Shown here piece by piece: positions 4,527-60,550 of a DNA stretch of 64,000 nt (position 1 is its first letter; the number at the start of each line of letters is the position of its first letter). Source of the DNA: a virus. Lineage: Duplodnaviria; Caudoviricetes. The notes below the pieces were generated by a model. The model was given only the letters and a program-made list of their open reading frames with translations. It searched no databases and was not told where the DNA came from. The translations under genes were made by a program, and so were the position numbers. Location: IMG/VR virus record IMGVR_UViG_3300020360_000085, positions 32,001 to 96,000 of that record; one strand, written 5' to 3'.

Positions 4527-5786
4527 TTACTCACCAGGCCTACCTGAACCAAAATTTAATCTGCTAAACTCTAATCTATCAATAATTTTTAAGGCACTTC
4601 CCATTCTGTCTACTGCAACAAATCCTTCTTCTGCTGTAACCTCAAATCCATTTTCTGTTTCTTTAAATGTAGGCATCTGTCTGATAGTTTCTAATTTTTG
4701 TACAATTAAATTTTTAGCACCAATTAATTTTGTATATAAGTCATATACACCTACAATACTATTCACATACTCTTTTAAAAATTTTACACCATCTACTAAA
4801 ATTTTTCTATACTCGTCCTGCTTTTTTTCTGTTTTATATCCATCTATCTTTTTTTCCATACGAGCAATATAACTTTGTGTAAACTCACTTGCAAATTTGG
4901 CTGGGTCTTGTTCTATGTAGCCGTCTCTGATGTTGCTGTTTACATGTGCTTTTAAATATTGTATAAATTCTTTACCTATTACATCAGAACCTTTTTCTAT
5001 CCAGTCAAACATTGGTTTACCAATTTTAGTTAAATAATTATTTGCATCTGATATAGCCTTAATCATTTCAACACTTTCCTGCTCTGTAAGTGTTACTGTA
5101 CCACTAAGATCTTTTATAGTGGCATCTCTAAACCATACATCTTTGTTTTTTGTTAATCCACTGCTATTGTATCCAAATTTTGCAGTAGTATCTGCAAGTG
5201 TTGGTCCGCCAACATATTCTGTATGAAATACTATACCCATATTGGATTGCAGTATTTCGTTTGCTAAATCACTGCCTTTAGGTACAGCATATAACAATGT
5301 GTTAGGTTTAAAATATACTACATCGTCACCATCAATTGTGCCTGTTTGTACCGTATCCTTTTTAAATAACATGTCGCCTTGCACAACTGTATCTATGTTT
5401 AACTTGGACAAATTTTCCAATGCTACTTTTAAAATATCCTGTAAACCACTATCTGGATGGTTTTCTTCAATGTCTTTATTTGTAAAATTTATTTTGGGTT
5501 TTTGTGCAAATACACCTTTTGTACCAACAAAAAATTTACCTGTTTCTGGATCTCTGCCACAAACTATTGCTGGAGCACCGTCCCATTTTGTTGTCATAGA
5601 TATTTTTGTTTTGCTACTGCCTTCCAGCATTTCATGTAAACTGTGAAGATAATCAACTGCCTCTTTGGCACCTTCATATCCTTTATTAAAAATATTATCT
5701 TCTAGATGTTCTAAATGAGTGTTTTTACCTTCTGCTTCTAATAAAATACTTTTGAGAATATTTTTATGTAAATCTGTAAACTTCAT
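4527..5786 (-). CDS. Conserved phage protein with ligase-like (covalent nucleotidyltransferase) motifs
   Basis: 419 aa; TKWDG (motif I KxDG), QGD, EGFV..K (motifs IV/V-like). Confidence 0.55.
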   Translation of the reverse strand: MKFTDLHKNILKSILLEAEGKNTHLEHLEDNIFNKGYEGAKEAVDYLHSLHEMLEGSSKTKISMTTKWDGAPAIVCGRDPETGKFFVGTKGVFAQKPKINFTNKDIEENHPDSGLQDILKVALENLSKLNIDTVVQGDMLFKKDTVQTGTIDGDDVVYFKPNTLLYAVPKGSDLANEILQSNMGIVFHTEYVGGPTLADTTAKFGYNSSGLTKNKDVWFRDATIKDLSGTVTLTEQESVEMIKAISDANNYLTKIGKPMFDWIEKGSDVIGKEFIQYLKAHVNSNIRDGYIEQDPAKFASEFTQSYIARMEKKIDGYKTEKKQDEYRKILVDGVKFLKEYVNSIVGVYDLYTKLIGAKNLIVQKLETIRQMPTFKETENGFEVTAEEGFVAVDRMGSALKIIDRLEFSRLNFGSGRPGE

Positions 5787-20681: not shown

Positions 20682-22712
20682 TTACCACTTATAGTCCAAT
20701 GTTAAATGATATTGCCTTCCAAATGAATCATATCCAGGAACTACCTCAACTATTTCATTTGTTAAGTTTTCACCTTTAAATGATAATATAACACCATTAG
20801 ACCATTCTTTAGTAATGTAAAAATCTAACTTATGTAAATCTTCTAAATACTCCTCTCCTTCTGCTAAAAAATCATAAGGTCCAGGTTCTCTTTCTAAATT
20901 TACTGCATACTTTAATCTAAAGTCTATATCAAACAAGTTTTGAGCCCATTGTACAACACCAGCATACTTAGGTATTCTGGACTGTTCTGTATCTGTGTAC
21001 TTAAACATCACAAAGAATGGACCAAAGTTATTTGCATATCTAATACCTTGTGTTTGATAAGCACCAGTATTTTCGTATGTTGCGTTATTCCAAATATAGT
21101 CTACTGTGGTTACAGATTCGTAAATACAACCAGGCACACCAAATGTTGCTTCATCATTTTCAGTCCAATTGGCATTTAAAACACAACCTGCTCCAGGACC
21201 ATTAAGTGTTGGATCATCTGGATCTACATAAAGTGATGCCTCTGCGTCTAATACTATTCTCATGGTTTCTACAGTTGTTGAAAAACCAGGCACATATTCT
21301 ATTGCTTCTTTAAAGTCATATAAAAATACACTTACTGCACCATAACCTAATTCTGCTCCTACACCTTCTTCAGGCTTAAGATCGAGATTGCCATCAACAT
21401 AACCGTCTCCATTTAGTTCATACAGGTTAGGCTTTCTAAAACTATTTCCTACATTAAAGAAAAAATCTCCTTTTGTGATACCTAATCTTAAAGCATTTTG
21501 ATTATCATTTCCAACTCTTACACCAAAATTGTAATTTAGTATAAAATTAGCATTTGCTGAAAAATATAAACCAGCATTTTCGTCTGAATACTTTTCAGAT
21601 ATTTCAGTTAGTGTATAAACACCATCTCCAATATATGATATATCAAATTCTCCTGTACCAATGTATTCTCCAGTCCATAAAGGCCTGCTTTTGTTTGTGT
21701 CATCATCAGCATAATATATACCAGGCTCTGTTATTTCTGTTTGAACTTCTATACTGCCTTCTACATTTTGCCAACTAGAAGTATTGTAATATATTTTTTC
21801 TGCATCTAAACCAAATGCTACATTAAGATTTTTACTTAACTCCATTTGATTGCCTACTCTTAAATAATCTCTAAAACTTTCGTTAGCATAAGTTTGATCA
21901 TAATGATAAAAAGTACCATCATTTGTTAAATCGCCAGTAAAGTAATCTGCATTATTATAGTTTCTTCCTAGTGTAAAGTATTCATTTCTGATTGCAAGAT
22001 TATATCTTTCTCCTTCCTGAACACAATCATTACTTTGACCCCAATCATAATTATAACAATTATCATAATCATATTCATAATCAGTGTATTTGCCTACAAT
22101 AGTAAAGTCACCTGCATTAACATTAAACCTTGCAGTTTTGTTCACATAGTGATCTTTTTCTTCGTTGTCATTTCTAGCACTACCATTACTACCATCAAAT
22201 AAACTAAATTCTAATTGTTCTAAAGGAGCAACTCTAATATAATTATTATCTCCTCTTCTATATGTAATACCATGCTCTATTGAGTCTTGTATTAAAACTG
22301 TTCCTGCCATACTGCCAGAACCATAAATTACACTATTAGCACCTGTAATTACTTTTACTTCTTGACCATGTGCAATATCATGTCCAAAATCATACCAACC
22401 TGCACCAGGATCATTTGCTGGTATTCCGTTTACAAAAACGGCAGTATGATTTGTTTGAGCCCCTCTCTCGTTAAAACCTACAAAACCACCATAACCACCA
22501 GGATTATATGTAAATGCAGGAAGTATTGCTTGTATTAAAGAAGTGTCTTCTATAGGATCTGCTTTGAGTTCTGTTTCTTGTTGTGCAACTACAACAATTT
22601 CTTCTATTTCATCTGCTTTAGTATCTAATGCAAAACACATAGCAAACATAATCACTACTGTAATGTATAAAGGACTAAAATTTATATGAAAATTTTTTTC
22701 GAATCTATCCAT
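20682..22712 (-). CDS. TonB-dependent outer-membrane receptor (BtuB-like)
   Basis: Signal peptide, EEIVVVA TonB-box-like segment, plug motifs (VFVNGIP, GANSVIYGSGSMAG), FRKPNLYEL, ENLTN, C-terminal aromatic beta-signal (LDYKW). Confidence 0.88.
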   Translation of the reverse strand: MDRFEKNFHINFSPLYITVVIMFAMCFALDTKADEIEEIVVVAQQETELKADPIEDTSLIQAILPAFTYNPGGYGGFVGFNERGAQTNHTAVFVNGIPANDPGAGWYDFGHDIAHGQEVKVITGANSVIYGSGSMAGTVLIQDSIEHGITYRRGDNNYIRVAPLEQLEFSLFDGSNGSARNDNEEKDHYVNKTARFNVNAGDFTIVGKYTDYEYDYDNCYNYDWGQSNDCVQEGERYNLAIRNEYFTLGRNYNNADYFTGDLTNDGTFYHYDQTYANESFRDYLRVGNQMELSKNLNVAFGLDAEKIYYNTSSWQNVEGSIEVQTEITEPGIYYADDDTNKSRPLWTGEYIGTGEFDISYIGDGVYTLTEISEKYSDENAGLYFSANANFILNYNFGVRVGNDNQNALRLGITKGDFFFNVGNSFRKPNLYELNGDGYVDGNLDLKPEEGVGAELGYGAVSVFLYDFKEAIEYVPGFSTTVETMRIVLDAEASLYVDPDDPTLNGPGAGCVLNANWTENDEATFGVPGCIYESVTTVDYIWNNATYENTGAYQTQGIRYANNFGPFFVMFKYTDTEQSRIPKYAGVVQWAQNLFDIDFRLKYAVNLEREPGPYDFLAEGEEYLEDLHKLDFYITKEWSNGVILSFKGENLTNEIVEVVPGYDSFGRQYHLTLDYKW

Positions 22713-41446: not shown

Positions 41447-42607
41447 TTAAAATGCTTTAAGAATGATAGTGTTATCATTTATTCTGCCGTTCATTTTAAT
41501 TGGTGTTGTTTTTAATTCATCAAACGATTTAGCAAATTTTGTTTTGGCTTTGCCTGTCCAATTAGTAATTTGCTCTTTAGGTTTACGCAAAGTTTTTTGT
41601 AAACTACTTTTAGTACAAAAATCTTGTATAGTAGTACCTTTTATCATTAATCCTGCACTAGGTCTAGAAAGTCCTCTTGGGTCTTTACTTAAAGCATGAT
41701 ATACACCTATCTTTCTAGTTTTAGTATTATACACCCATAACTCATTACAATTTACTATATCTGTAGGATGGATACTTGCTACTCCAAGTTCACTATCATT
41801 AATTTGATATTTTAATTTTTTAACGATTGTTTCTTTACTTCTTGCTCTTGGCTTACGAGACTTTCTTGTTGACTTTTTAGTTTCTATAATTGTATCACAT
41901 GCAGTATTAATTTTTTCAAAAAATGCTACAAAGTCTTTTCTCATTTTAGCAGACATATGACTATATGCTTCTTTAATTTGATCATCCTTCCATTCCTGAA
42001 CTTCTAATGCTTCATTATATTCATTTTCAAATTCTTCTTTTATAATTTTAGCATGATTGGCTTTTACTTCAGGTTGATAAACGAGCATGTCCTCGTAAGG
42101 TTTAAATTCTTTAAGTGTTAATTTTTCATCAGTTAATGAGTCTAATTTATATTCCCATTCTGCACACAAGGCCTCTACTTGTTGTTTCATTCTTTCCTGT
42201 ATGCTAATTACCTTTTTAGGTTTTTCTTCTGCTTTCTTTTGTTTTTCTTTAATAAATTCTTTACCACGTTTAAGCCATTCTTCTTTCCTTTTTTCATAAT
42301 GGCCTTTCGTACCCTCAGGCATATATCCTAATTTATATTCTACAAATAATGCAATACCAGAAGAAGCAAATGCCCAATCAGGGTTATTTAAAATAATTTT
42401 TATTTCTTCTTTAGTCCAACCTGATTTTTCTTTTACCCAATGCTTGGCCGCATTTACCATTTTCTTTCTGGATATTTCTGTTCTAACAAAATATTCACAA
42501 CTATTAAATGCTTGTATTTGTTTTTCAGGGTCAGTAATTTCCCGTAGAGTCTTCCAATCAGGCTCTTTTGTAATGTATATGCTTCTTTCTTTCTTTTTTC
42601 GTGGCAT
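41447..42607 (-). CDS. Conserved hypothetical basic protein
   Basis: Likely start MPRKKK (42607); VYNTKTRK, KTLRKP motifs. Confidence 0.7.
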   Translation of the reverse strand: MPRKKKERSIYITKEPDWKTLREITDPEKQIQAFNSCEYFVRTEISRKKMVNAAKHWVKEKSGWTKEEIKIILNNPDWAFASSGIALFVEYKLGYMPEGTKGHYEKRKEEWLKRGKEFIKEKQKKAEEKPKKVISIQERMKQQVEALCAEWEYKLDSLTDEKLTLKEFKPYEDMLVYQPEVKANHAKIIKEEFENEYNEALEVQEWKDDQIKEAYSHMSAKMRKDFVAFFEKINTACDTIIETKKSTRKSRKPRARSKETIVKKLKYQINDSELGVASIHPTDIVNCNELWVYNTKTRKIGVYHALSKDPRGLSRPSAGLMIKGTTIQDFCTKSSLQKTLRKPKEQITNWTGKAKTKFAKSFDELKTTPIKMNGRINDNTIILKAF

Positions 42608-42614
42608 CTGTGTC

Positions 42615-42845
42615 TCAGTCTTCAAACAGTTGTTCTGGATCTGGCGAATCATACATTAATTGTATAACTGTAGGCCAATTTTTAAATCCTAATATACTGT
42701 TTTTATCTTTTAAAGCATTTTTTTGCTTAAAGAACTGAGTAATACTTATCATTCCAGTAAATTTTCCTGCTCTTTCACCTGCTTTATACATAAAATATGA
42801 GTTTGCAAGTATAAAGATTAGAAAAAATAAAAACATTGAATCCAT
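42615..42845 (-). CDS. Small membrane protein
   Basis: N-terminal TM helix; SD GGAGG; sigma70 promoter upstream. Confidence 0.7.
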   Translation of the reverse strand: MDSMFLFFLIFILANSYFMYKAGERAGKFTGMISITQFFKQKNALKDKNSILGFKNWPTVIQLMYDSPDPEQLFED

Positions 42846-50131: not shown

Positions 50132-50764
50132 ATGACCAAAGGCGAAATCATAGATTTTGAGGTCTTGCGAATACAAAATGATTTGGATAATTTTCAGCGA
50201 ACTAACACGATACCACATACTATATTAGAAGGCACATTTGATATAGAAGAAATAAAGGATGTTTTTTTAAATAAACTTCCTCCTAAGTATAAAAAAATAG
50301 GTAAAAGACTTGTAGATGAATACTACGAAAAAATAAATGAAAATTTAGAGTCTTTAAAAACTGCCATGAAAAGGGACTACGACAGAGTCTTTAAAAATAT
50401 GGCATCTGCTCATGAAAGTTTTAGATATAAGCAGACAATGAACCTATATAGACCTGGAATTAATCCAATTAGAGCATTGTATTATCAGACCCGTGACGTG
50501 AGCAGGAGATATAATCCTGAGCACCCTTACCACTACTGGTTAATAGACCTTGTTACAGATTTAGAATATAACAATATTATATTAGATGCTTTAAAAAAGG
50601 ACATAAGCAAACTTGAACGTATAATAAAAAGATATTATTACCCTATAACTAAAATTGATGATAATATTCCTTTAGAATTATTTCATGCTAAACAGCAACT
50701 AAAGGACTTTAAACATTATTACAAATATTTCAGAGATATAAAACATTGGAGACCAGACGAGTAA
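50132..50764 (+). CDS. Hypothetical late protein
   Basis: 210 aa; AATAAATA 5 nt before ATG. Confidence 0.7.
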   Translation: MTKGEIIDFEVLRIQNDLDNFQRTNTIPHTILEGTFDIEEIKDVFLNKLPPKYKKIGKRLVDEYYEKINENLESLKTAMKRDYDRVFKNMASAHESFRYKQTMNLYRPGINPIRALYYQTRDVSRRYNPEHPYHYWLIDLVTDLEYNNIILDALKKDISKLERIIKRYYYPITKIDDNIPLELFHAKQQLKDFKHYYKYFRDIKHWRPDE

Positions 50765-51346
50765 TTATTTAAATGTGGTTGCTTTCATGCTACAAACAAT
50801 TCTATTTTGCTTATTGTCAGAATTTACAGCACTATGCCAACTAGTTGGGCCTGTTCTAAATAAAAATAAACTTCCAGGATTTCCTCCAACAATTTTATAA
50901 GGTTTATCTGCATCTGGATTATCATATATTTCTGTGCCAAAAACATATTCAGGATTACAATAAATTACACCTCTTACAAAAGGATTATTTGGAGTTTCTT
51001 CGTCTCCATAATAGTCATTATGCATTTGTAATTTTTGATTTTTACTTATCATATTTTCTACACCATAAAAATATTTACAATTGATGTCCCAAACATTATT
51101 AATTGCTTCAACAATATCTTTATTTTTTTGTCTAATTTTTTCTATAATATCCAGATAAGCAGATACATGTTGGGGACCATCATTATTAAATTCTTTTTGA
51201 GATAAATTTTCCTGTAACTTAATATAATTATCAAATATATTTTTATTATCTAAACCTGTAATAAAATTTTCTATTACAATATATTCAAAAGGATATGTGT
51301 TTAAATTTTCCCTACAAATTTTATCAATATTTTGTACTTGAACCAT
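50765..51346 (-). CDS. Putative 2OG-Fe(II) oxygenase
   Basis: MHND (HxD), SWHS, RIV; PFEYIVIENF N-terminus typical of the family. Confidence 0.65.
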   Translation of the reverse strand: MVQVQNIDKICRENLNTYPFEYIVIENFITGLDNKNIFDNYIKLQENLSQKEFNNDGPQHVSAYLDIIEKIRQKNKDIVEAINNVWDINCKYFYGVENMISKNQKLQMHNDYYGDEETPNNPFVRGVIYCNPEYVFGTEIYDNPDADKPYKIVGGNPGSLFLFRTGPTSWHSAVNSDNKQNRIVCSMKATTFK

Positions 51347-53415
51347 TATTTAGAAGTTTTCCTTTCAACACCGTCCCATTCTCCTGCAGGCATAGGTTGT
51401 TTTATTCTTTGTGCATATAAATTTGCAAGAGTATTATTCCAGTCATGTTCTTTTATTACTTCTATTTGATGAGCACATTCGGCCCATTCCCTATTTTGAT
51501 AAGCATCTACCATTCTGTTTATTACTCTAACCTCTTTTGTGTCTTTTAAAATTGTATAAATTGTTACAGGTGCAGTTTGGCCTTTTACTGCAATTTTATC
51601 TAACATTACAAGTCCTTGTGGTGAAACTATTTGTTTTAATGTATGTTCTGTAAACATAAAAAATACACCATACTCTTTGGTTTGTGCTTCTAAACGAGCC
51701 GCTAAATTTACACTATCTCCTAAAACTGTATAATCAAAACGTTGATTAGAGCCCATGTTACCTACTACGGCATCACCTGTGTTTATTCCTATACCAACAC
51801 CCAACTCCATTAATCCATCTTCTTTAAGTTCTTTATTAAGTTTTTTAAGTTCTACTTCCATTTCTTGTGCTGTCTCAATAGCCAATTGGGCATGATTATC
51901 TACATCAAGTGGAGCATTCCATATTGCCATTAAGGCATCTCCTATGTATTTGTCTATTGTGCCTTCTTTTTGCATAACAAGATCTGTCATAGGTGTCATA
52001 TATCTGTTAATTAATTTTCCTAAACCTTCAGGATCTGTTTTAAATTGTTCTGATATTGGAGTGAATCCACGAATATCTGAAAACAAATATGTCATTGTTC
52101 TTGTATCTCCGCCTAAACGTAATAGACTTGGATCTTTTTGTAACTTTTTAACCATTGCAGGTGCAAGATAATGTTCGAATTGTTTTTTAATTTGTTCACG
52201 TAATTTATATTGTTTGTAAAAGTTATTAAATGCCGCCTGTGTAAAAACTAAAAATCCACTTAGTACAGGGAAAGTAGCATCTAATAAAACTAAATCGCTT
52301 GTATATTTGTAAACACTATAATAGGATATTCCCCCTAATACTGCAAGTGATATAGGTGCAGTCCAAAGTAATGGCAGTTTATAAACTGCTAAAGCAATTA
52401 GAATCATAGTCAAGAAAGCAACGACCAACTCTGTGACAGCACTTAATTGGCTTCTTGTTATGTTACTGCCGTCTATAATGTTTTGTATCATATGAGCCTG
52501 TATATGTTGTGGATAAAGATTACCACGTGGTGTAGGTACAGGGTTTGCAACACCCTCAGCAGTAACACCTATGACTACCCATTTACCCATTAAATCTGGA
52601 ATACTATCAGCACCTTCATATTCTATTTCTTCAAAAGAATTATTAAAACGTATATAAGCAGTACCATCTGGTTGTGTAACTACAGGAGGAAAAGGAGGAA
52701 TAGCCACTTCTTGTATTCCTATTTCAGATGTTTTTATCATATAACTGGGTTTACCTGTGTGTACCCTTAACATCTCTACTGCAAAACTAGGATAAATTTT
52801 GTCTTCTACAGTAATAGCAAGAGGGTATGTTCTAGTTTGATTATCTGGTTGAGGGGCAGATGCTAAAACACCTTTACCATTACTTACAACTTCCAATATG
52901 GGAATATTAGTAACTAAATTAGGCCATTTAAGTAAATAATCTTTTGCTGGTACAGGACCTATTGTACCTGTACCTATATGAGGACCTGTACTTTTTATTC
53001 CTTTAACACTTGGCGTTTGACTTAAAACATTTACATTTACAGGATTTTTTCTAGCACCTGGAATGTTAATAACATTTTGTTGTAATATTCCTGCAAAACT
53101 TTCGTCTCCCTGAAATCTATCTGCTTCAGGAAACATAATTGTCCAACCTACGGGACCACTATTTTTCATAGCAACGTCTACTACAAGTTGTGCATAATAT
53201 TGCCTTGGAAATGGATACTGTCCGTATTTTGCTAAACTTTTTTCGCCAATGTTTATTAATACAACATTATCACTTTGTTTTACTTCATCTAATTGTTGAT
53301 AACTGTCAAAAACTTGACTTCTAAGACTTTGTAATGGTGTAGGATCTACTATTCTTAAGCCAAGTAAAAGTGCAATAGATAGGACCACTGCATAACCACT
53401 ATATAACCATTTCAT
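51346..53415 (-). CDS. CHASE2-domain membrane adenylate cyclase (class III)
   Basis: TM + CHASE2 (YPFPRQYYA, ILFPEADR-like, IGVTAEG) + 3 TM + cyclase FSDIRGFT, KYIGDALMA, DYTVLGDSVNLAARLE. Confidence 0.92.
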   Translation of the reverse strand: MKWLYSGYAVVLSIALLLGLRIVDPTPLQSLRSQVFDSYQQLDEVKQSDNVVLINIGEKSLAKYGQYPFPRQYYAQLVVDVAMKNSGPVGWTIMFPEADRFQGDESFAGILQQNVINIPGARKNPVNVNVLSQTPSVKGIKSTGPHIGTGTIGPVPAKDYLLKWPNLVTNIPILEVVSNGKGVLASAPQPDNQTRTYPLAITVEDKIYPSFAVEMLRVHTGKPSYMIKTSEIGIQEVAIPPFPPVVTQPDGTAYIRFNNSFEEIEYEGADSIPDLMGKWVVIGVTAEGVANPVPTPRGNLYPQHIQAHMIQNIIDGSNITRSQLSAVTELVVAFLTMILIALAVYKLPLLWTAPISLAVLGGISYYSVYKYTSDLVLLDATFPVLSGFLVFTQAAFNNFYKQYKLREQIKKQFEHYLAPAMVKKLQKDPSLLRLGGDTRTMTYLFSDIRGFTPISEQFKTDPEGLGKLINRYMTPMTDLVMQKEGTIDKYIGDALMAIWNAPLDVDNHAQLAIETAQEMEVELKKLNKELKEDGLMELGVGIGINTGDAVVGNMGSNQRFDYTVLGDSVNLAARLEAQTKEYGVFFMFTEHTLKQIVSPQGLVMLDKIAVKGQTAPVTIYTILKDTKEVRVINRMVDAYQNREWAECAHQIEVIKEHDWNNTLANLYAQRIKQPMPAGEWDGVERKTSK

Positions 53416-54184: not shown

Positions 54185-54898
54185 TTAACCTGCAAATGCA
54201 CGTTCTAACATAAAATCTCCAGACTCTCCTGTGTTGCCTTCGTGCCATCCTAAGTTTGTAAATAGTTCTCTGCAATCTTTATTCATTTCTGGAGAACCGC
54301 ATACCATAACTGCGTCTCTGGTTTTATCTAAATTACTGCCTAAAACATCTGGAATATAGTTCCAAAATCTACCAGGTCTTAAATATTTTTCTCTAGTTAC
54401 TGTTTCTATATAATTAAAGTTAGGATAATCTAAACTGTTTAGTTTTTGCTTATATGCTAGTTCATTTACATTTCTTACAGTATGAAACAAGTAAACATTA
54501 TTAAACTTTTCATAGGTCTCAAAATCATGTGCAATACTTATAAAAGGTGCGATACCTGTGCCAGTAGATAGCATTACTAAATTTTGTTTTTTATTTAAAT
54601 AATCTATAACTAGACTGCCAGTACATTTCGGATTTACAATAACCTCTTCTCCAATTTGTACATTTTGTAATTTTTCTGTAAGGGGACCATTTGGAACTTT
54701 GATACTTAAGAACTCTAAATGCTCGTCATAATTTGTACTTACAATACTATATGCTCTAAGTATTGGTCTAGGATCTACATCGAGACCCATCATACAAAAC
54801 TCTCCATTTTTAAATCTAAAACTTTTATCTCTTGTGGTTTTAAAACTGAAAAGTCTATCTGAATAATGTTTGACTTCTGTAACTGTCTCTTTGTGCAT
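54185..54898 (-). CDS. fpr: Ferredoxin-NADP+ reductase (bacterial Fpr type)
   Basis: RAYSIVS (FAD), GPLT, STGTGIAPF, MVCGSPEM, LERAF. Confidence 0.92.
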   Translation of the reverse strand: MHKETVTEVKHYSDRLFSFKTTRDKSFRFKNGEFCMMGLDVDPRPILRAYSIVSTNYDEHLEFLSIKVPNGPLTEKLQNVQIGEEVIVNPKCTGSLVIDYLNKKQNLVMLSTGTGIAPFISIAHDFETYEKFNNVYLFHTVRNVNELAYKQKLNSLDYPNFNYIETVTREKYLRPGRFWNYIPDVLGSNLDKTRDAVMVCGSPEMNKDCRELFTNLGWHEGNTGESGDFMLERAFAG

Positions 54899-54919
54899 AC
54901 AGATATTTATTTTATAGAT

Positions 54920-54952
54920 AAAATTTCCCCTGCCATTTCTGACAGAGGAAAT
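54920..54952 (-). terminator. Rho-independent terminator after the lipoprotein frameshift extension
   Basis: ATTTCCTCTGTCA-GAAA-TGGCAGGGGAAAT-TTT; two G.U pairs form only on the minus strand. Confidence 0.75.
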
Positions 54953-54974
54953 GTGTTTTGTAAAAAGTTAAAAC

Positions 54975-55142
54975 TTATTCACATTCTTTAGGATTTTTAG
55001 AACAATACTCCATTACCTTATTAAGCAATTTTACTTGTTCAATAAGTTCTGAAATGTCCTCATCGTCCTGCTCACCCTCATCTGAGGATTTTTTGTCTTC
55101 CTTCTTAGGTAGGAAAACTTTTGCTAAGAATGAGCGTTCTAC
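54975..55142 (-). CDS. Start-less 55-codon frame: candidate -1 frameshift extension of the lipoprotein
   Basis: VERSFLAKVFLPKKEDKKSSDEGEQDDEDISELIEQVKLLNKVMEYCSKNPKECE*; entered from A_AAA_AAG at 55142-55148. Confidence 0.6.
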   Translation of the reverse strand, partial: VERSFLAKVFLPKKEDKKSSDEGEQDDEDISELIEQVKLLNKVMEYCSKNPKECE

Positions 55143-55438
55143 TTTTTTTCTTCTTCTGGTTTTTTATCTTTGGAATCTTCTTGAAGTTCATCAGTTTGTT
55201 CATCAATTTCATCTGAAACTGTTTTAACAACACCTGCTCCTACTTCTAAAGCAGTCGTAGAAATATCAGAAACATCTTCTGCTACTGATACTGCCACATC
55301 TGATGCAGTTCCAACTACCACGTCTACTGTGTTAGTTGCTAACTCTTTACCGCCCTCGATTACTGCTCCAACTGAGGCACAACCTTGTGCGAAAATTACA
55401 AAGAATAAACCTAAGAACATATTTTTTAGTCCTTCCAT
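55139..55438 (-). CDS. Lipoprotein (99 aa)
   Basis: Start MEGLKN with SD AAGGAG; lipobox FAQG-C20; late promoter 55489-55496 with 5' hairpin GTGTAATA/TATTACAC. Confidence 0.8.
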   Translation of the reverse strand: MEGLKNMFLGLFFVIFAQGCASVGAVIEGGKELATNTVDVVVGTASDVAVSVAEDVSDISTTALEVGAGVVKTVSDEIDEQTDELQEDSKDKKPEEEKK

Positions 55439-55500
55439 TTTATTCTCCTTATATAAGGTGTAATAAGCCATCTGCTATATTACACTAATATTTATCGGAA

Positions 55501-56667
55501 TTAAAACATCATATTAAGTTTTTTGTAAAACTTATTGTAATGTTTAGACCCGTCTTTAAAATCATTATAATGATCTCGATTATATTCTAAAACATCATAC
55601 ATTTCGTATAACATTTCAGTCAACTCTTGATGTGATGTATTTGATAATTTTTGATATAGATTATATAATTTATTTTTTCTCGAGTTATGATCCTTGTCGT
55701 TATCATAACTTTCGTCCCACCATTTATAAAATGTTTTAAATCCACAATCTTTAAGATAGGATAATGCTCCAGGTTGTGCATGTAATATAAATGGATTTGC
55801 CATAACTATAGCCTTGGTACATTTATCTGTCATATCTAATTCATAATCGTTATAATCTTTACATGTATGTTCAAAATATGTTTCACTAACAAAATGTATA
55901 TAAGTATCTAAAAATGCTTGTCTTTCAGTATCACTTTTAAGTCTTGGTAAAAAAGGGTCGCTGGAATTTGTATTATGTAAGTCATATATCCATGGTAAAC
56001 TATTTAAAAGTTCATCACTTAAATTTAATTCGTCTTTATAACTTTCTATAGACATATCTTTAAATGGAGTATAACAAGAAACTAAATTTTGTTGCTTTAA
56101 ATTATTATCAAAAATAAATTTACATAACTCTGCTCTATGTTTATAAGGCTTACCCATAAAAGTTAATAATTTTTTAGGTCGCTGTATTTTATTTTTTATT
56201 TGCTCATATTGTTTATCTATAATATCCTCAGGCTGACATAATGGCATAAAGACTTGATATGGCAATGTAGCAACATTATACTCCTTGGGCTCAAAACTTT
56301 TTATGTTTCCTACTATAAGTATTACATCATTTTTATTTAAATTATATTTTAGCATGGTATTACAAATTATTTTATGTGTAAAATCTCTGTTACCAAAATA
56401 TCTATATGTAATATCATAACTTTCACTAGTAAAATCAAAAAGTAATTTACATTTGTTATCCTTTATGTCTTTTAAAATATCTTGTGGAATATTATAAAAG
56501 TATTCTTTTGCTTTTAATATTAATTGTTTATCTCGTTGAGGAGGACATGTGATTTGCATATCTATTTGAATAGGATACACATACTTTTGATTTGTATTAT
56601 TTTTAATGGGTAATCGTAGAAGATCTTCTACTGAAGAATTCATTTGACCTGTATGAGTAAACAACAT
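55501..56667 (-). CDS. Hypothetical protein, putative glycosyltransferase-like family (paralog of 28722..30008)
   Basis: Start moved to ATG 56667, 5 nt after CATAAATA; GFKTFYKWWDESYD motif. Confidence 0.6.
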   Translation of the reverse strand: MLFTHTGQMNSSVEDLLRLPIKNNTNQKYVYPIQIDMQITCPPQRDKQLILKAKEYFYNIPQDILKDIKDNKCKLLFDFTSESYDITYRYFGNRDFTHKIICNTMLKYNLNKNDVILIVGNIKSFEPKEYNVATLPYQVFMPLCQPEDIIDKQYEQIKNKIQRPKKLLTFMGKPYKHRAELCKFIFDNNLKQQNLVSCYTPFKDMSIESYKDELNLSDELLNSLPWIYDLHNTNSSDPFLPRLKSDTERQAFLDTYIHFVSETYFEHTCKDYNDYELDMTDKCTKAIVMANPFILHAQPGALSYLKDCGFKTFYKWWDESYDNDKDHNSRKNKLYNLYQKLSNTSHQELTEMLYEMYDVLEYNRDHYNDFKDGSKHYNKFYKKLNMMF

Positions 56668-56693: not shown

Positions 56694-57575
56694 CTAATCT
56701 TGTGTAACTGAAATAGAACAACCACCTAAGGTTGCACAGGTTTGTGTCAATGTATATGTTTGTCCTACGGAGTTGTGTGATTGATTTAGATATAAATCTG
56801 TTCCATAACTACCATATAAATTAATAGTTGCCGTATGAGCACCATTTTTTCTTTGTTTTATCCAAACATCATTATTATCATTATAGATATTTAGGTTTAA
56901 TGTTTTACTTCCATTTTGTAATTGTCCAGCATAAACTTCGTTACCGTCACCAAATATGTTTACATACATGTTGTGATTTATACTGCTACTATCTTGTTTT
57001 TGGCCTGCTTTAAAGTCATTGTTGTCGCCATGTATATCTAATCGCACAAGATTTCCACCTGGTTCATTATAATCATATGACCAAGAAGTGTTTCCGTTAC
57101 TAGAATTTTTATCTAAAAACCAACCTTGACCAACCATTACATCATTACTATTACCTTCTAAATGAAATTCTACTTTGCTTTCATTACAACTGTTGTAACT
57201 ACATTTTTGCCATATTTGTAATGTGTTACTATCTCCGTCTATATCTCCGCCTTGATCATGTCCTTGACCCCAAGCACTTGAATAACCTATATAAAAATTA
57301 TTACCTTCTTGTAATATTGCTATTTCGTTTGATTGTCCATCTAAACTAAAGTTAATGTCATTATCATATCCATCTTGTAATACTCTTAAAATATTATTAC
57401 TAGAATCTGCACTTACTATACCTAAATCTATATCAATAATATTATTATACCCTTCTTGATTGGCTTCAATAATTACATTATCTCCTGCTTGTTCAATTAA
57501 AACTTCCTGGTCATCTGCTAATAAAACAGATGGTATTAATAATAATCCTGCTAATATGTTTCTTAATATTTTCAT
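56694..57575 (-). CDS. Secreted curlin-repeat-like protein
   Basis: Signal peptide; repeated Q-x-G-x-x-N units (EQAGDN, NQEGYNN, LQDGYDN, LQEGNN, HGDNND, FGDGNE). Confidence 0.7.
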   Translation of the reverse strand: MKILRNILAGLLLIPSVLLADDQEVLIEQAGDNVIIEANQEGYNNIIDIDLGIVSADSSNNILRVLQDGYDNDINFSLDGQSNEIAILQEGNNFYIGYSSAWGQGHDQGGDIDGDSNTLQIWQKCSYNSCNESKVEFHLEGNSNDVMVGQGWFLDKNSSNGNTSWSYDYNEPGGNLVRLDIHGDNNDFKAGQKQDSSSINHNMYVNIFGDGNEVYAGQLQNGSKTLNLNIYNDNNDVWIKQRKNGAHTATINLYGSYGTDLYLNQSHNSVGQTYTLTQTCATLGGCSISVTQD

Positions 57576-58748
57576 CTAATTCTGTATAATTGTTATTACA
57601 CTTCCCTCACAACTGTTTAGGCACATTATTGTAGAACCTAAATCTTTATCTGTTACAAATATTTGTGCAGATGTACCCTTTTTAAACTTTAAACTAACGT
57701 AATTATTAGCCTGCCTTAAAAAGAACACTTTACCATCAACATCTGGTAAAATATTAAATTGGTTATCTGCTTGTAATCCAAAATTTCTATCTATTAATCT
57801 ATCACTAAAGTTTTGTTCCTGTTGGCCGTCCAAAGCATCTGCTTCTTCTATAATCTCCAACAAATCTCTCAAAAAGTCAACTTCTAAGAAATTAATATCT
57901 AATTCTGTAAATTCTAACTCCTGTTCGGCTTCTGCCGCCAAATCTTGTCCTTCTAAAAAGTCAATGTCTAAGTCTGAAAAGTCTAACAATCCACCATCTC
58001 CTTTAAGTGCTTCTTGTTGTTCTTCTTCTGCCTGTACAATCTCTTCAGGTTTACTCACAATAAACATATTGTCTATCATATTCAAATCCAGGTCTACTAA
58101 AACAACTGGATTTGTTGGAGGTGTTTCAAACGTACTAACCATTACAGCCTGAAATGCCTCTTCAAGTATTACTGTACCACCGTCATTAGTCACAGTTATA
58201 CTCCCTGAAGGTCTACAACCTTCTTCTAATTTTACCCTATCATTACAATTTGCATCTGGTAATAATATTACTAAACTTCTACCCAGTTCGTCAACTGTAG
58301 TGGTAAAATCAGTTCCCCTAATACCAATAGTTGCTGTAGGCGTTTCTATCATAATATTTTCTTTAGGAACAAGTCCTAAACCGCCTGTTGCAAATCGAGC
58401 CGTGCCTTGAACAAAGTTCATAGCCATTTTGCTCTTGCTTGGATCAGGATCATATACATACTCTGTAATCTCTACAACTGTATGTTCTGTCAAACTAATC
58501 TGTGTTTGGTCTACAAATTCGATTTTTAATCTACCGTTTTCGGTTTCTACATTATCATAACTTTGTACACCTGTGTCTAAAATAGCATCAAGTTGTTCTC
58601 CTGACGTCCTATAAATGGCGCCAGGAGTACCACTTTGCTCCGAAACGCCGCCAATCTCTTCAGCGGCGTTCAGAATAGGTGTTAGCAAAAATGCCAGAGC
58701 GAATAATAATTTAGTCGGTCTGTTTAATGCTAACTGATGCATTTTCAC
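57576..58748 (-). CDS. Secreted FecR-domain protein
   Basis: Signal peptide; VETENGRLKIEFVDQTQISL...QGTARF...TPTATIGIRGT; acidic C-terminal part. Confidence 0.82.
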   Translation of the reverse strand: MKMHQLALNRPTKLLFALAFLLTPILNAAEEIGGVSEQSGTPGAIYRTSGEQLDAILDTGVQSYDNVETENGRLKIEFVDQTQISLTEHTVVEITEYVYDPDPSKSKMAMNFVQGTARFATGGLGLVPKENIMIETPTATIGIRGTDFTTTVDELGRSLVILLPDANCNDRVKLEEGCRPSGSITVTNDGGTVILEEAFQAVMVSTFETPPTNPVVLVDLDLNMIDNMFIVSKPEEIVQAEEEQQEALKGDGGLLDFSDLDIDFLEGQDLAAEAEQELEFTELDINFLEVDFLRDLLEIIEEADALDGQQEQNFSDRLIDRNFGLQADNQFNILPDVDGKVFFLRQANNYVSLKFKKGTSAQIFVTDKDLGSTIMCLNSCEGSVITIIQN

Positions 58749-59526
58749 TGTCTAAGTCTACGTTAATTACACCTTTACATGCTGGTGTACAGGTTGCTGT
58801 CATATCTTGAGTGAACTGAAAATCTCCATCACTACCGTTTAACACAACTGTTAAACTTTGACCGCTATTACCACTTTGCTTAGTAGCAAACTTGTTGTCG
58901 TCTCCTGTTATTTCCATATTCCATACAGCATTATCTGTATTTACTATGATGCCAGACATTGAACTTGTTCCAGTACAATTTGTACCACAACTTTCGCCTT
59001 GGCCTTGAGCCGCCCAAACGTTGCTATTTGTAAATGAACCATCGAAATCATTTCGATCGCCAAGTATTACTAAGTCAAAATTTAAATATTCAGCACTTGC
59101 AGAACTACCAATGTCAACATCAAAAAGGTTTGAATCACCTTGAATGTCAACAAGCATATCTGCTTCGTCACTGCTACCTGAACTACCAATATTCATGTCC
59201 CAGACATTACTATCACCTAAGAAGTAAAAATCTAAAACAGATGATCCACTACCATCAAGGACCCAACTACCAAACATGTCGTTATTATTACCGTCTTGTA
59301 TCAAGTCTAAAATTAAACTTGAACCAGTAAGAGTAAGATCACTGTTTTGTGATGCGTCACCTGATAAAGTGTTTCCATAGCCAGCCTGTAAGATGGTCAA
59401 TGTGAGGTTATCACCTTCTTGATCCAATAACACTTCGTTATCGTCTGCAAGAATTGGACCAGCCATAAGGCATGCAAAAGCGAAGACACTGACTGCTAAT
59501 TTACTTAAAAATTTACTTGTCTTCAT
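58711..59526 (-). CDS. Secreted curlin-repeat-like protein
   Basis: Start MKTSKF; signal peptide; DQEGDN, LQAGYGN, IQDGNNN, LGDSN, QGDSN, TGDDN repeats. Confidence 0.7.
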   Translation of the reverse strand: MKTSKFLSKLAVSVFAFACLMAGPILADDNEVLLDQEGDNLTLTILQAGYGNTLSGDASQNSDLTLTGSSLILDLIQDGNNNDMFGSWVLDGSGSSVLDFYFLGDSNVWDMNIGSSGSSDEADMLVDIQGDSNLFDVDIGSSASAEYLNFDLVILGDRNDFDGSFTNSNVWAAQGQGESCGTNCTGTSSMSGIIVNTDNAVWNMEITGDDNKFATKQSGNSGQSLTVVLNGSDGDFQFTQDMTATCTPACKGVINVDLDSENASVSIKQTD

Positions 59527-60550
59527 TATTTTCTCCAATATTGGTTATACTATCATTCTTTAATAGAATGCGTTTCCATAAAGGTATTGAACTAGGGTCT
59601 TTGGAAAATGCTTCGACATCCTCCGCGTCCGGAAGAACGCCTGAATCTTTGAGACTCATCCAGTATGCCTGCTCTTGAGCGGCTACTTGATCGTCCCAAT
59701 CTTCTGGATAAACAATCTTCCAATATCCTCTTTCATCACCTTGAGTAATAAGTTCTAACACCGCGGCCTCGATCGCTGATCGGACTGCGTATGTTACACT
59801 TTCATTCTGTGTCATTCCGCTCTCTAGTTCAAGTAATTTGGTATCCATATCTAAAAATCTAAATACATCTCCTGCTTGACCTGAACTTAATACGGTCTTG
59901 CTTGTTTGCACGTTGAGTATCACTTCGCCAGTGAGTGTGCTTACTGCACGAAGTGAAACCACAATGCTATCCCTACGATACTGGTTTGTTGTACCAATAC
60001 CGAGATATCTTGCCCCTGTACCTCCTGTTTCAATATTAGTGTCATATCCTACAATACCACCTTCTAATATCATACCAGCAAATAACATTGGCTGTAGTTC
60101 TTGAAACTCGTCTTTACCTGCCTGTTTGGCTTGCTCAGATCGAGTGCTTCGAACTATTTGTCTTTCTCTAACTAAGTTATCTAAACCTAGTCCTCTTTCA
60201 ACTACTCTAAACCAAGTTCCTTTTGGATTTTCTCCTGAACCTGCCGCCTTTAGAGCGTCTATTAATAAACTTTTTGCGTCTTGAGTAACTGCTGTACTAA
60301 AACTTGCAACATTATCTTGGCTTTTCCTTTGTCCTGTTCCATCTCCAAATTGATAAACAGCAACCACAGGCATGTTTTCTGCTGGAGGCAGATACCTTAA
60401 CTTCCTGTACGTAGGTAGTTCTACTTTTTTAGGCTCTTCAACACATTCTAAAAAATCTGTTTTACATGCCTGATCGCCTGGTATAGCGATACTGGCACAC
60501 CCGCTTAAATATAACACACCTATAAATGCTATTAATATTTTTTTATACAA
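59513..60550 (-). CDS. csgG: Curli secretion channel CsgG
   Basis: Lipobox LSGC; VAVYQFGDGTGQRK, FSTAVTQ, FRVVER.GL.NL..ERQI.R, EGGIVGYD, LR.VST.TGEV. Confidence 0.92.
   Translation of the reverse strand: MYKKILIAFIGVLYLSGCASIAIPGDQACKTDFLECVEEPKKVELPTYRKLRYLPPAENMPVVAVYQFGDGTGQRKSQDNVASFSTAVTQDAKSLLIDALKAAGSGENPKGTWFRVVERGLGLDNLVRERQIVRSTRSEQAKQAGKDEFQELQPMLFAGMILEGGIVGYDTNIETGGTGARYLGIGTTNQYRRDSIVVSLRAVSTLTGEVILNVQTSKTVLSSGQAGDVFRFLDMDTKLLELESGMTQNESVTYAVRSAIEAAVLELITQGDERGYWKIVYPEDWDDQVAAQEQAYWMSLKDSGVLPDAEDVEAFSKDPSSIPLWKRILLKNDSITNIGENNEDK

What the first reader, a model, noticed from the sequence alone, without database searches (positions are those of the whole stretch)
54920..55496. 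Candidate -1 programmed ribosomal frameshift giving two forms of a late lipoprotein
Seen: the 99-aa lipoprotein ends CCA GAA GAA GAA AAA AAG TAG, so the heptamer A_AAA_AAG sits directly before the stop. The -1 frame stays open for 55 more codons and ends ...VMEYCSKNPKECE*. That frame has an in-frame TAA just upstream of the slip site and its first ATG is only 12 codons from the end, so it cannot plausibly be a separate gene. A stem (TC-A-TTCTTAG / CTAAGAA-G-GA) starts about 8 nt downstream, and the only terminator lies after the extension stop. Established: A_AAA_AAG is the strongest bacterial -1 slippery site (dnaX, IS3 family). Inference: short and long lipoprotein isoforms in a fixed ratio, the long one carrying an acidic linker, a coiled coil and a Cys pair; possibly an envelope-spanning or spanin-like role. 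This is outside the usual tail-chaperone frameshift context.
Basis: partly seen in the sequence, partly recalled or inferred. Interest (0 to 1): 0.85.

Follow-up and report, generated by a model that had tools for sequence, protein, structure and literature searches.

The report
Frameshifted two-form phage lipoprotein gene
A small lipoprotein gene of an uncultured marine T4-like giant phage carries a conserved ribosome-slippage site at its stop codon, so it very probably makes a short protein and a longer one with an extra cysteine-looped tail; the mechanism is classical but had not been described for this kind of gene.

Summary
On the minus strand a 99-aa lipoprotein ORF (55438..55139) ends GAA AAA AAG TAG. 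The -1 frame stays open for 55 codons, ends ...YCSKNPKECE, and has no usable start codon.

In this AT-rich phage the heptamer alone is weak evidence: five in-register A_AAA_AAG sites occur in 67 ORFs. The comparative evidence is strong.
- Of 74 related viral contigs, 69 keep an in-register slippery heptamer (A_AAA_AAG or G_GGA_AAG) 0-1 codon before the stop. All 69 also have a -1 extension with an invariant Y-C-x3-P-x2-C.
- The extension varies mainly at third codon positions of the -1 frame.
- The one clade without a heptamer also lacks the extension, and a terminator follows its stop directly.
- No in-frame fused homologue turned up in two very large protein searches, apart from one deletion variant.
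- An independent DNA contig shows the same A7 run.

I conclude this is a real -1 programmed frameshift (about 0.85), a new member of a known kind.

The spanin idea fails its defining features, and the function remains unknown. One sister clade carries the same extension in the +1 frame, which I cannot explain. The scan had noted only this same stretch before.

The parts
55489..55496 (-). Late-promoter-like box GATAAATA (T4-type late consensus TATAAATA; NATAAATA-like boxes sit at the same place in most related clades)
   Evidence: Sequence; upstream regions of relatives. Promoter function is inferred only.
55458..55485 (-). 5'-UTR hairpin: 11 pairs, one bulged T, loop AGATG. It is conserved in structure across clades.
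   Evidence: RNAalifold on 12 loci predicts 10 pairs, 9 of them with compensatory double changes; no Rfam family matches.
55445..55450 (-). Shine-Dalgarno AAGGAG, 6 nt before the ATG at 55438
   Evidence: Sequence; GGAG is conserved in all aligned relatives.
55139..55438 (-). Zero-frame ORF for the short isoform: 99-aa precursor including stop TAG 55141..55139. It has a 19-aa signal peptide and then an invariant Cys20 (codon 55381..55379).
   Evidence: The mature part is a 67-residue amphipathic helix with 3.67-residue periodicity.
55142..55148 (-). Slippery heptamer A_AAA_AAG in the X_XXY_YYZ register, directly followed by the zero-frame stop
   Evidence: It is conserved in register as A_AAA_AAG or G_GGA_AAG in 69 of 74 related loci and in further clades.
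54975..55142 (-). -1 frame extension of 55 codons (VERSFLAK...YCSKNPKECE) plus stop TAA 54977..54975. The long isoform precursor is 154 aa.
   Evidence: Variable sites by codon position are 27/15/58, and the synonymous-to-nonsynonymous ratio is highest in this frame.
54978..55064 (-). Conserved C-terminal module of the long isoform: an amphipathic helix followed by Y-C-x3-P-x2-C
   Evidence: Y, C, P and C are invariant across clades. AF2 gives a helix at residues 26-48 with pLDDT above 90, preceded by a low-confidence linker.
55099..55133 (-).
   Evidence: -5.2 kcal/mol and not the MFE. L002 and L088 carry a C.A mismatch in it. It is not supported as a conserved stimulator.
55095..55118 (-). 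Alternative 8-bp hairpin GUUUUCCU/AGGAAGAC, 23 nt after the heptamer; it is part of the MFE fold
   Evidence: It is kept in L002 and kept in L088 through one C-G to U-A double change. It lies too far downstream for a classical stimulator, so its role is unknown.
54923..54952 (-). Terminator-like hairpin with T tail after the extension stop
   Evidence: In the clade without an extension, a terminator follows the short ORF's stop directly.

Best explanation
This is a real -1 programmed ribosomal frameshift in a small, probably late-expressed lipoprotein gene of an uncultured marine T4-like jumbo phage.

Most ribosomes read the zero frame and stop at TAG. That gives a 99-aa precursor with a signal peptide, a lipid-modified Cys20 and a long, very acidic amphipathic helix.

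A fraction of ribosomes slip back one base on A_AAA_AAG, with both Lys tRNAs re-pairing while the stop codon waits next. They read GTA and 54 more codons. The resulting 154-aa precursor has the same N-terminal part plus a flexible acidic linker, a short amphipathic helix and a C-terminal Cys-x3-Pro-x2-Cys turn that probably forms a disulfide in the periplasm.

Shown: the sequence anatomy, its conservation, and purifying selection on the -1 frame.

Inferred: the slippage itself, the ratio of the two forms, lipidation, export and disulfide formation.

The function is not known. My best guess is that both forms are anchored in the host envelope through the shared part, and that only the long form carries a partner-binding tail, so the frameshift rate fixes the proportion of 'armed' molecules.
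For: - The heptamer, stop and open -1 frame are as described.
- 69 of 74 related viral loci have an in-register heptamer 0-1 codon before the stop: 48 A_AAA_AAG then stop, 14 A_AAA_AAG then one codon then stop, and 7 G_GGA_AAG then stop. All 69 have a -1 extension of 31-57 aa with YCx3Px2C. Three more clades fetched from other assemblies show the same.
- The 4 loci without a heptamer (one clade) also lack the extension, and a terminator follows their stop directly.
- In the extension, 58 of 100 variable sites fall at third positions of the -1 frame. Synonymous versus nonsynonymous codon differences are 246/230 in that frame, against 62/422 and 42/428 in the other two.
- The extension fills the gap to the next gene almost exactly in many loci.
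- 114 of the 120 best protein homologues end in KK, KK plus one residue, or GK, which is the footprint of the heptamer.
- None of the 120 best-scoring of 207 homologues, nor any of 59 cluster representatives, carries the tail in frame.
- G_GGA_AAG clades have no long homopolymer. This points to tandem tRNA slippage rather than polymerase stuttering.
- In the A_AAA_AAG GAC TAA clade a hairpin starts 6 nt after the heptamer and shows covariation. G_GGA_AAG clades have hairpins at 5-9 nt.
- An independent DNA contig is identical over 54700..55480 with no indel. An RNA-library contig spans the slip site without an indel.
- AF2 gives a confident helix plus turn for the last 30 residues of the extension.
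Against: - No protein evidence exists for the trans-frame product.
- In-register A_AAA_AAG is not rare in this AT-rich genome.
- The window's own clade has no convincing conserved stimulatory structure at the usual 5-9 nt distance. Efficiency could therefore be low.
- A sister clade (L005, L077-L087, L098) keeps the extension under selection in the +1 frame without any recognisable slip site. At least there, something other than classical -1 slippage must express it.
- The lipobox is atypical in many members, with Pro at -2 in LPSC: 112 of 180 fit a PROSITE-like core.
- The contigs laid cannot exclude a minor A8 RNA population.
Confidence: 0.85

Rival explanations
1. Transcriptional slippage: RNA polymerase stutters on the A7 run and adds one A to part of the transcripts. 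Normal translation of those transcripts then gives the long form.
For: The window has a run of seven A (55149..55143), and most clades have A6-A7. Polymerase slippage on A runs that gives two length variants is documented for Citrobacter tssM (PMC4256274, listed; I read only its abstract).
Against: - Seven loci in three sequence clades use G_GGA_AAG, with only three A and three G, where stuttering is not expected.
- The run is always in the X_XXY_YYZ register relative to the zero frame, which matters for tRNA re-pairing but not for a polymerase.
- Hairpins sit 5-6 nt downstream in several clades.
- From general knowledge, bacterial RNAP slippage is usually appreciable from about 9 A.
- RNA-library contigs show no inserted base, though contigs drop rare variants.
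Confidence: 0.07
2. The extension is an independent small gene, or is translated by re-initiation after the lipoprotein stop, not as a fusion.
For: In the +1-frame clade, gene callers call a 75-80-aa overlapping ORF from ATG codons inside the conserved DEIDEQ motif. That clade has no slip site.
Against: - In the window and in the other -1 clades there is no ATG, GTG or TTG in the -1 frame between the upstream stop and the last 12-17 codons.
- There is no SD before it.
- The product would have no signal peptide, although its only invariant residues include a Cys pair typical of exported proteins.
- A heptamer would have no reason to be conserved in that case.
- One natural deletion variant (P0130) fuses the N-terminal lipoprotein part in frame to the C-terminal module.
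Confidence: 0.04
3. Artefact or DNA-level switch: an assembly or sequencing indel in the homopolymer (truly one continuous ORF), or phase variation by slipped-strand mispairing.
For: Homopolymer runs are indel-prone, and phase-variable lipoproteins with poly-A tracts exist in mycoplasmas (reference list of PMC3711429).
Against: - More than 80 independent contigs from many samples and assemblers show the same out-of-frame arrangement, and none is in frame.
- The 120 best-scoring of 207 protein homologues show no A8-type fused products.
- Independent DNA contig X7 matches exactly.
- G_GGA_AAG clades have no homopolymer.
Confidence: 0.02
4. The -1 frame is a decaying remnant of a once-fused C-terminal domain, and only the short form is made now.
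For: A clade with only the short form exists and is evidently viable. The window's clade has no clear stimulatory structure.
Against: - The extension is kept open and under purifying selection in lineages as far apart as 46% protein identity.
- Y, C, P and C are invariant in it, and indels in it are in frame.
- The slip site is kept under two different heptamers.
Confidence: 0.02

Closest known systems
Phage lambda G/GT tail assembly chaperone frameshift (and its many tailed-phage analogues)
   Same: - A -1 slip on a canonical heptamer near the end of a short ORF; lambda uses G_GGA_AAG, the heptamer found in seven related loci here.
- The result is a shared N-terminal part, with or without a C-terminal extension, in a fixed ratio.
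- The two-ORF arrangement is conserved although the sequences diverge.
   Different: - The gene here is not between the tail tube and tape measure genes, and has no similarity to chaperones.
- The product has a signal peptide and a lipobox, so it acts in the host envelope, not in tail assembly.
- T4-like phages are reported not to use frameshifting for their tail chaperones (Vladimirov et al. 2022, as cited in PMC10885494).
E. coli dnaX tau/gamma frameshift
   Same: The identical heptamer A_AAA_AAG, which relies on tRNA-Lys slippage, with a downstream hairpin in several clades here.
   Different: - In dnaX the shift leads to early termination and the shifted product is the shorter one. Here the shifted product is the longer one.
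- dnaX has an upstream SD-like enhancer, and none is seen here.
- In most clades here the zero-frame stop codon itself sits right after the slip site.
C-terminally extended structural proteins of phages made by recoding (T7 10A/10B, Lactobacillus phage A2 major head protein by -1; Listeria phage PSA Cps/Tsh by +1)
   Same: Late phage genes in which a minor, longer isoform is produced by a frameshift close to the stop codon.
   Different: Those are capsid or tail proteins. This one is an exported lipoprotein of unknown function. The PSA case rests on my own knowledge and was not checked here.
Spanins (Rz/Rz1 two-component; T1 gp11 unimolecular)
   Same: A phage-encoded small lipoprotein with Cys residues, plus two reading frames used at one locus.
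   Different: - Rz1 is a separate gene with its own start, embedded in Rz, with no frameshift.
- o-spanins are Pro-rich and pair with an adjacent type-II membrane i-spanin.
- u-spanins end in a transmembrane helix.
- None of these features is present here.

Membership tests
Canonical bacterial/phage -1 programmed ribosomal frameshift cassette | Slippery heptamer X_XXY_YYZ in the zero-frame register | tested here: met
   A_AAA_AAG lies at 55148..55142. It is in register in 69 of 74 relatives as A_AAA_AAG or G_GGA_AAG.
Canonical bacterial/phage -1 programmed ribosomal frameshift cassette | The -1 frame is open past the zero-frame stop, lacks its own start, and is conserved as protein | tested here: met
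   Y, C, P and C are invariant, and variation is mainly at third positions.
Canonical bacterial/phage -1 programmed ribosomal frameshift cassette | Stimulatory RNA structure 5-9 nt downstream (or an upstream SD-like element) | tested here: inconclusive
The feature is met in other clades: a covarying hairpin at 6 nt and hairpins at 5-9 nt. No upstream SD-like element is present. The adjacent stop codon may be the only stimulator.
Canonical bacterial/phage -1 programmed ribosomal frameshift cassette | Detection of the trans-frame protein | not testable with these tools
   This needs a reporter assay, MS or ribosome profiling.
Bacterial-type lipoprotein (signal peptidase II substrate) | Positively charged n-region, hydrophobic h-region, and a lipobox ending in an invariant Cys | tested here: met
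   The signal peptide reads MEGLKNMFLGLFFVIFAQG|C. The Cys is invariant in 180 family sequences. 112 of these fit a PROSITE-like lipobox core, and the rest mostly have LPSC with an atypical Pro at -2. No dedicated predictor was available.
Bacterial-type lipoprotein (signal peptidase II substrate) | Actual lipid modification and membrane localisation | not testable with these tools
   This needs palmitate labelling, globomycin sensitivity or fractionation.
Spanin (o-spanin / u-spanin) | o-spanin: an adjacent or overlapping i-spanin gene (N-terminal TM helix plus periplasmic coiled coil) and a Pro-rich mature part | tested here: not met
   The neighbours are a 406-aa protein with no Pfam match (I saw no TM helix by eye; not formally tested) and a ferredoxin-NADP-reductase-like protein. 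The mature short form has 1 Pro in 79 residues and is helical.
Spanin (o-spanin / u-spanin) | u-spanin: a C-terminal transmembrane helix on the lipoprotein | tested here: not met
   The long form ends in a charged helix and a Cys-Pro-Cys turn and has no hydrophobic segment.
Tail assembly chaperone G/GT | Position between the tail tube and tape measure genes, and chaperone homology | tested here: not met
   There are no Pfam or PHROG hits. The gene lies among envelope and auxiliary genes here, next to DNA polymerase in one clade and after gp23 in another.

The most novel reading that the evidence does not exclude
The family is an evolutionarily plastic recoding system. The same exported C-terminal Cys-loop module is reached by -1 slippage on two different heptamers in most lineages. 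In one lineage it is reached from the +1 frame by a so far undescribed route. That 3' cassette has been swapped by recombination into an otherwise identical gene (L098 versus the window). One lineage has lost the module altogether.

The long isoform would be a stoichiometrically limited adaptor that couples a lipid-anchored amphipathic helix to another envelope component. One candidate is the DUF5658-like membrane protein encoded next to it in many clades, some members of which carry a similar [YF]-C-x-K-N-x3-C motif. Another is the neighbouring CHASE2 cyclase / curli-like cassette.
Probability: 0.2. Interest if true: 0.8.

Novelty: new member of a known kind. Interest (0 to 1): 0.6.

Why it matters
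Known programmed frameshifts in tailed phages are almost all in tail assembly chaperones, with a few in capsid or tail proteins.

- This would be a well-conserved case in an exported lipoprotein, in a group of abundant, uncultured marine T4-like phages.
- Gene callers annotate only the short form, or a spurious overlapping ORF, so the long product is missing from the protein searches run here.
- The family offers natural controls: two heptamers, a clade with no extension, and a clade with the extension in the +1 frame. These make it a good system for studying how recoding signals evolve.
- It also marks the lipoprotein as a protein whose dosage of a C-terminal module matters. That is a handle for finding its function in the infected cell envelope.

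Tried and rejected
- Cultured or deposited phages (INPHARED): DNA and tblastn searches with the window's gene and with a distant relative found nothing. Only the neighbouring DNA polymerase of the L045 clade matched cyanophages, at about 65%.
- Pfam and PHROGs gave no family for either part, even at E up to 10. Rfam found nothing in 54850..55600.
- ESM Atlas: the short form sits in unnamed viral clusters. A weak lead to DUF6726 (score 0.87) was not confirmed by hmmscan. The extension gave no usable hit.
- AF2 of the short form gave one long helix at pLDDT 51, too weak for a fold search.
- Homotrimer test of the mature helix (complex prediction): no verdict, score 0.02. This is not evidence either way.
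- The exhaustive profile search hit two plant PPR proteins. These are spurious repeat matches.
- The motif [YFW]-C-x3-P-x2-C occurs in no other sizeable ORF of the 250-kb record. No tRNA-Lys is encoded in the record.
- I looked for a classical +1 or -2 site in the +1-frame clade (CCC_A, AAA_A, AAG_TAA) and found none that is both conserved and convincing.
- Five literature searches found no description of this frameshift. The library lacks most subscription journals.

Full report
**Setting.** The window is bases 32001-96000 of a 250.5-kb IMG/VR virus record. It encodes T4-type terminase, tail sheath, gp15 and a DnaB-like helicase. It has about 32% G+C. It is therefore an uncultured T4-like jumbo myovirus, and the related contigs come from marine metagenomes. 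The finding lies on the minus strand.

**Observation.** The minus strand reads AAGGAG-N6-ATG (55438), and the ORF ends CCA GAA GAA GAA AAA AAG TAG (stop 55141..55139).
- The heptamer A_AAA_AAG (55148..55142) is in the X_XXY_YYZ register.
- The -1 frame has a TAA seven codons before the slip point. It then runs 55 codons (55142..54978) to ...VMEYCSKNPKECE, with TAA at 54977..54975.
- The only ATG in the -1 frame is 12 codons from its end.
- A terminator-like hairpin with a T tail follows at 54952..54923.
The region's minimum-energy fold (-10.3) uses other pairs.
- All statements of the finding are correct. Taken alone they are weak: the window has five in-register A_AAA_AAG sites in 67 ORFs.

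**Comparative test.** A pattern scan of IMG/VR found 75 related loci. I located the ORF end in each and read the other frames.
- Of the 74 complete loci, 48 end in A_AAA_AAG followed by the stop.
- 14 end in A_AAA_AAG, then GAC, then TAA.
- 7 end in G_GGA_AAG followed by the stop.
- All 69 have a -1 extension of 31-57 residues containing Y-C-x3-P-x2-C.
- The extension sequences are only about 30% identical across clades. The Tyr, both Cys and the Pro are invariant, and an amphipathic stretch precedes them.
- Three further clades, fetched through exact-protein look-ups, show the same design (A_AAA_AAG TAA; A_AAA_AAG AAC TAA).
- The extension usually ends within a few bases of the next gene's start, so it fills what annotators treat as an intergenic gap.

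**Selection.** Within groups of equal extension length, 27, 15 and 58 variable sites fall at codon positions 1, 2 and 3 of the -1 frame. In the largest group, synonymous versus nonsynonymous codon differences are 246/230 in that frame, against 62/422 and 42/428 in the other two. The extension is therefore translated in the -1 frame.

**Natural controls.**
- Four loci of one clade (L013-15, L023) read CCT AAA CAG GAC TGA. They have no heptamer and no homologous extension, and a strong terminator starts five bases after the stop. Heptamer and extension therefore occur together or not at all.
- I inspected the 120 best-scoring of 207 homologues from the 5.8-billion-protein collection, and 59 representatives from the exhaustive 1.84-billion search. 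No protein carries the tail in frame. The few long hits are N-terminal miscalls.
- 114 of the 120 best homologues end in KK, KK plus one residue, or GK.
- A search with the extension itself found only short overlapping ORF calls. The one exception is P0130. In that single 1.2-kb contig, an internal deletion joins the first 56 residues of the lipoprotein in frame to the C-terminal module. This is weak support that the module belongs on the lipoprotein.

**Artefact and DNA-level variation.** An independent marine DNA contig is identical over 54700..55480 with no indel. An RNA-library contig from a related strain spans 55029..55173 without an indel. Other RNA-library contigs cover the extension. 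Contigs cannot show minor variants. Expression is therefore only suggested, and a small A8 RNA fraction cannot be excluded.

**Ribosomal or transcriptional.** Three points favour tandem tRNA slippage.
- The G_GGA_AAG clades have no homopolymer.
- The zero-frame register is strict.
- Hairpins lie 5-6 nt downstream in several clades. In the GAC-TAA clade the hairpin starts 6 nt after the heptamer, directly after the stop, and shows compensatory changes. G_GGA_AAG clades have hairpins at 5-9 nt with shuffle z-scores of -2.7 to -7.1.

An 8-bp hairpin 23 nt downstream is kept, with one double change. The largest clade (TAG AGG AGG...) has no significant structure. For the window, the slip site plus the adjacent stop codon may be the whole signal.

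**The proteins.**
- The signal peptide ends in an invariant Cys followed by the nearly invariant ASVGAVIEGGKE.
- 112 of 180 family sequences fit a PROSITE-like lipobox core. Most others have LPSC.
- The mature short form is very acidic (net -13). AF2 predicts a single helix at low confidence.
- It has a hydrophobic periodicity of 3.67 residues over 66 residues, which 0 of 5000 shuffles reach. This is a long amphipathic helix of the 11/3 type.
- A trimer test gave no verdict.
- AF2 models the extension as a low-confidence linker followed by a helix (residues 26-48, pLDDT above 90) and a short turn carrying the Pro and the second Cys.
- Neither part has a Pfam or PHROG family.

**Context and function.** In the window and several clades the gene lies between a CsgG / curlin-like / FecR cassette and a CHASE2 adenylate cyclase. 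In the largest clade it lies between DNA polymerase and NifU/UvsX genes. In another clade it lies after gp23. It behaves as a small mobile module, so its neighbours do not fix its function.

An NATAAATA-like box (GATAAATA, 55496..55489) and a covarying 5'-UTR hairpin precede it. This fits late expression.

The spanin features that could be checked are not met: there is no adjacent i-spanin, no C-terminal TM helix, and the mature part is not Pro-rich.

My working model is inferred. Both isoforms are anchored in the envelope by the shared lipid and helix, and the long one adds a disulfide-stapled binding tail in a proportion set by the frameshift rate.

**Unexplained.** A sister clade (L005, L077-L087, L098; possibly up to about 23 of the 120 protein clusters) has GAA AAG AAG TAA and no heptamer. 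A one-base difference after the stop puts the homologous extension in the +1 frame.
- The extension is still under purifying selection there: nearly all differences are synonymous, and there is a 3-nt in-frame indel.
- L098 is identical to the window up to the codons just before the slip region and then switches to this +1-type cassette. The two 3' ends are therefore exchanged by recombination.
- I found no conserved, convincing +1 or -2 site.

**Novelty.** The mechanism is classical. Five full-text searches and the PRFect and GeneTack papers gave no report of a frameshifted phage lipoprotein. I rate it a new member of a known kind. Confidence in -1 PRF is about 0.85, and interest is 0.6.

Noticed in passing
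window 55458..55496 (minus strand); same position in L004, L005, L006, L024, L026, L041, L043-L045, L058, L060: A conserved 5'-UTR hairpin with loop CAGATGG/CAGTTGG sits just downstream of an NATAAATA-like box and about 10-25 nt before the SD. 9 of 10 predicted pairs show compensatory double changes across clades, and no Rfam family matches. It may be a 5'-terminal stabiliser of a late transcript or a protein operator.
   Followed up: partly
L005:300-560; L077:3236-3475; L085-L087; L098:1181-1408: A sister clade has no slippery heptamer (GAA AAG AAG TAA) and carries the homologous, still selected extension in the +1 frame. L098 is identical to the window upstream and switches to this cassette near the slip region, which indicates recombination. 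How the extension is expressed there is unknown.
   Followed up: partly
L013:3001-3330 (also L014, L015, L023): This clade, located just after the gp23 major capsid gene, has only the short lipoprotein. It has no heptamer and no extension, and a strong terminator follows the stop directly.
   Followed up: yes
L077:3522-4034, L004:3467-3988, L094:1223-1727, L006:1215-1724 and others: In many clades the next gene encodes a 160-175-aa protein with a signal-like N-terminus and a weak DUF5658 match. Some members carry [YF]-C-x-K-N-x3-C, which resembles the extension's Cys loop. No homologue was found in the window's 250-kb record.
   Followed up: partly
L097:565-831 (protein P0130): A single short contig in which an internal deletion joins residues 1-56 of the lipoprotein in frame to the C-terminal module of the extension. 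It could be a natural variant or an assembly error.
   Followed up: partly
window 4527..5786 (two sites), 41447..42652, 50132..50764: Four other in-register A_AAA_AAG heptamers lie inside long ORFs, far from their stops. They were not examined for alternative frames.
   Followed up: no
window 51346..53415 and 56694..60550 (minus strand): A CHASE2 adenylate/guanylate cyclase, a FecR-domain protein, a CsgG homologue and curlin-like repeat proteins flank the lipoprotein gene. The same neighbourhood is seen in L006, L021, L029 and L077.
   Followed up: partly
window 20682..22712 (minus strand): A 676-aa ORF has a TonB-dependent receptor Plug domain (Pfam E 1.2e-9). It sits in the phage next to a helicase gene.
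   Followed up: no
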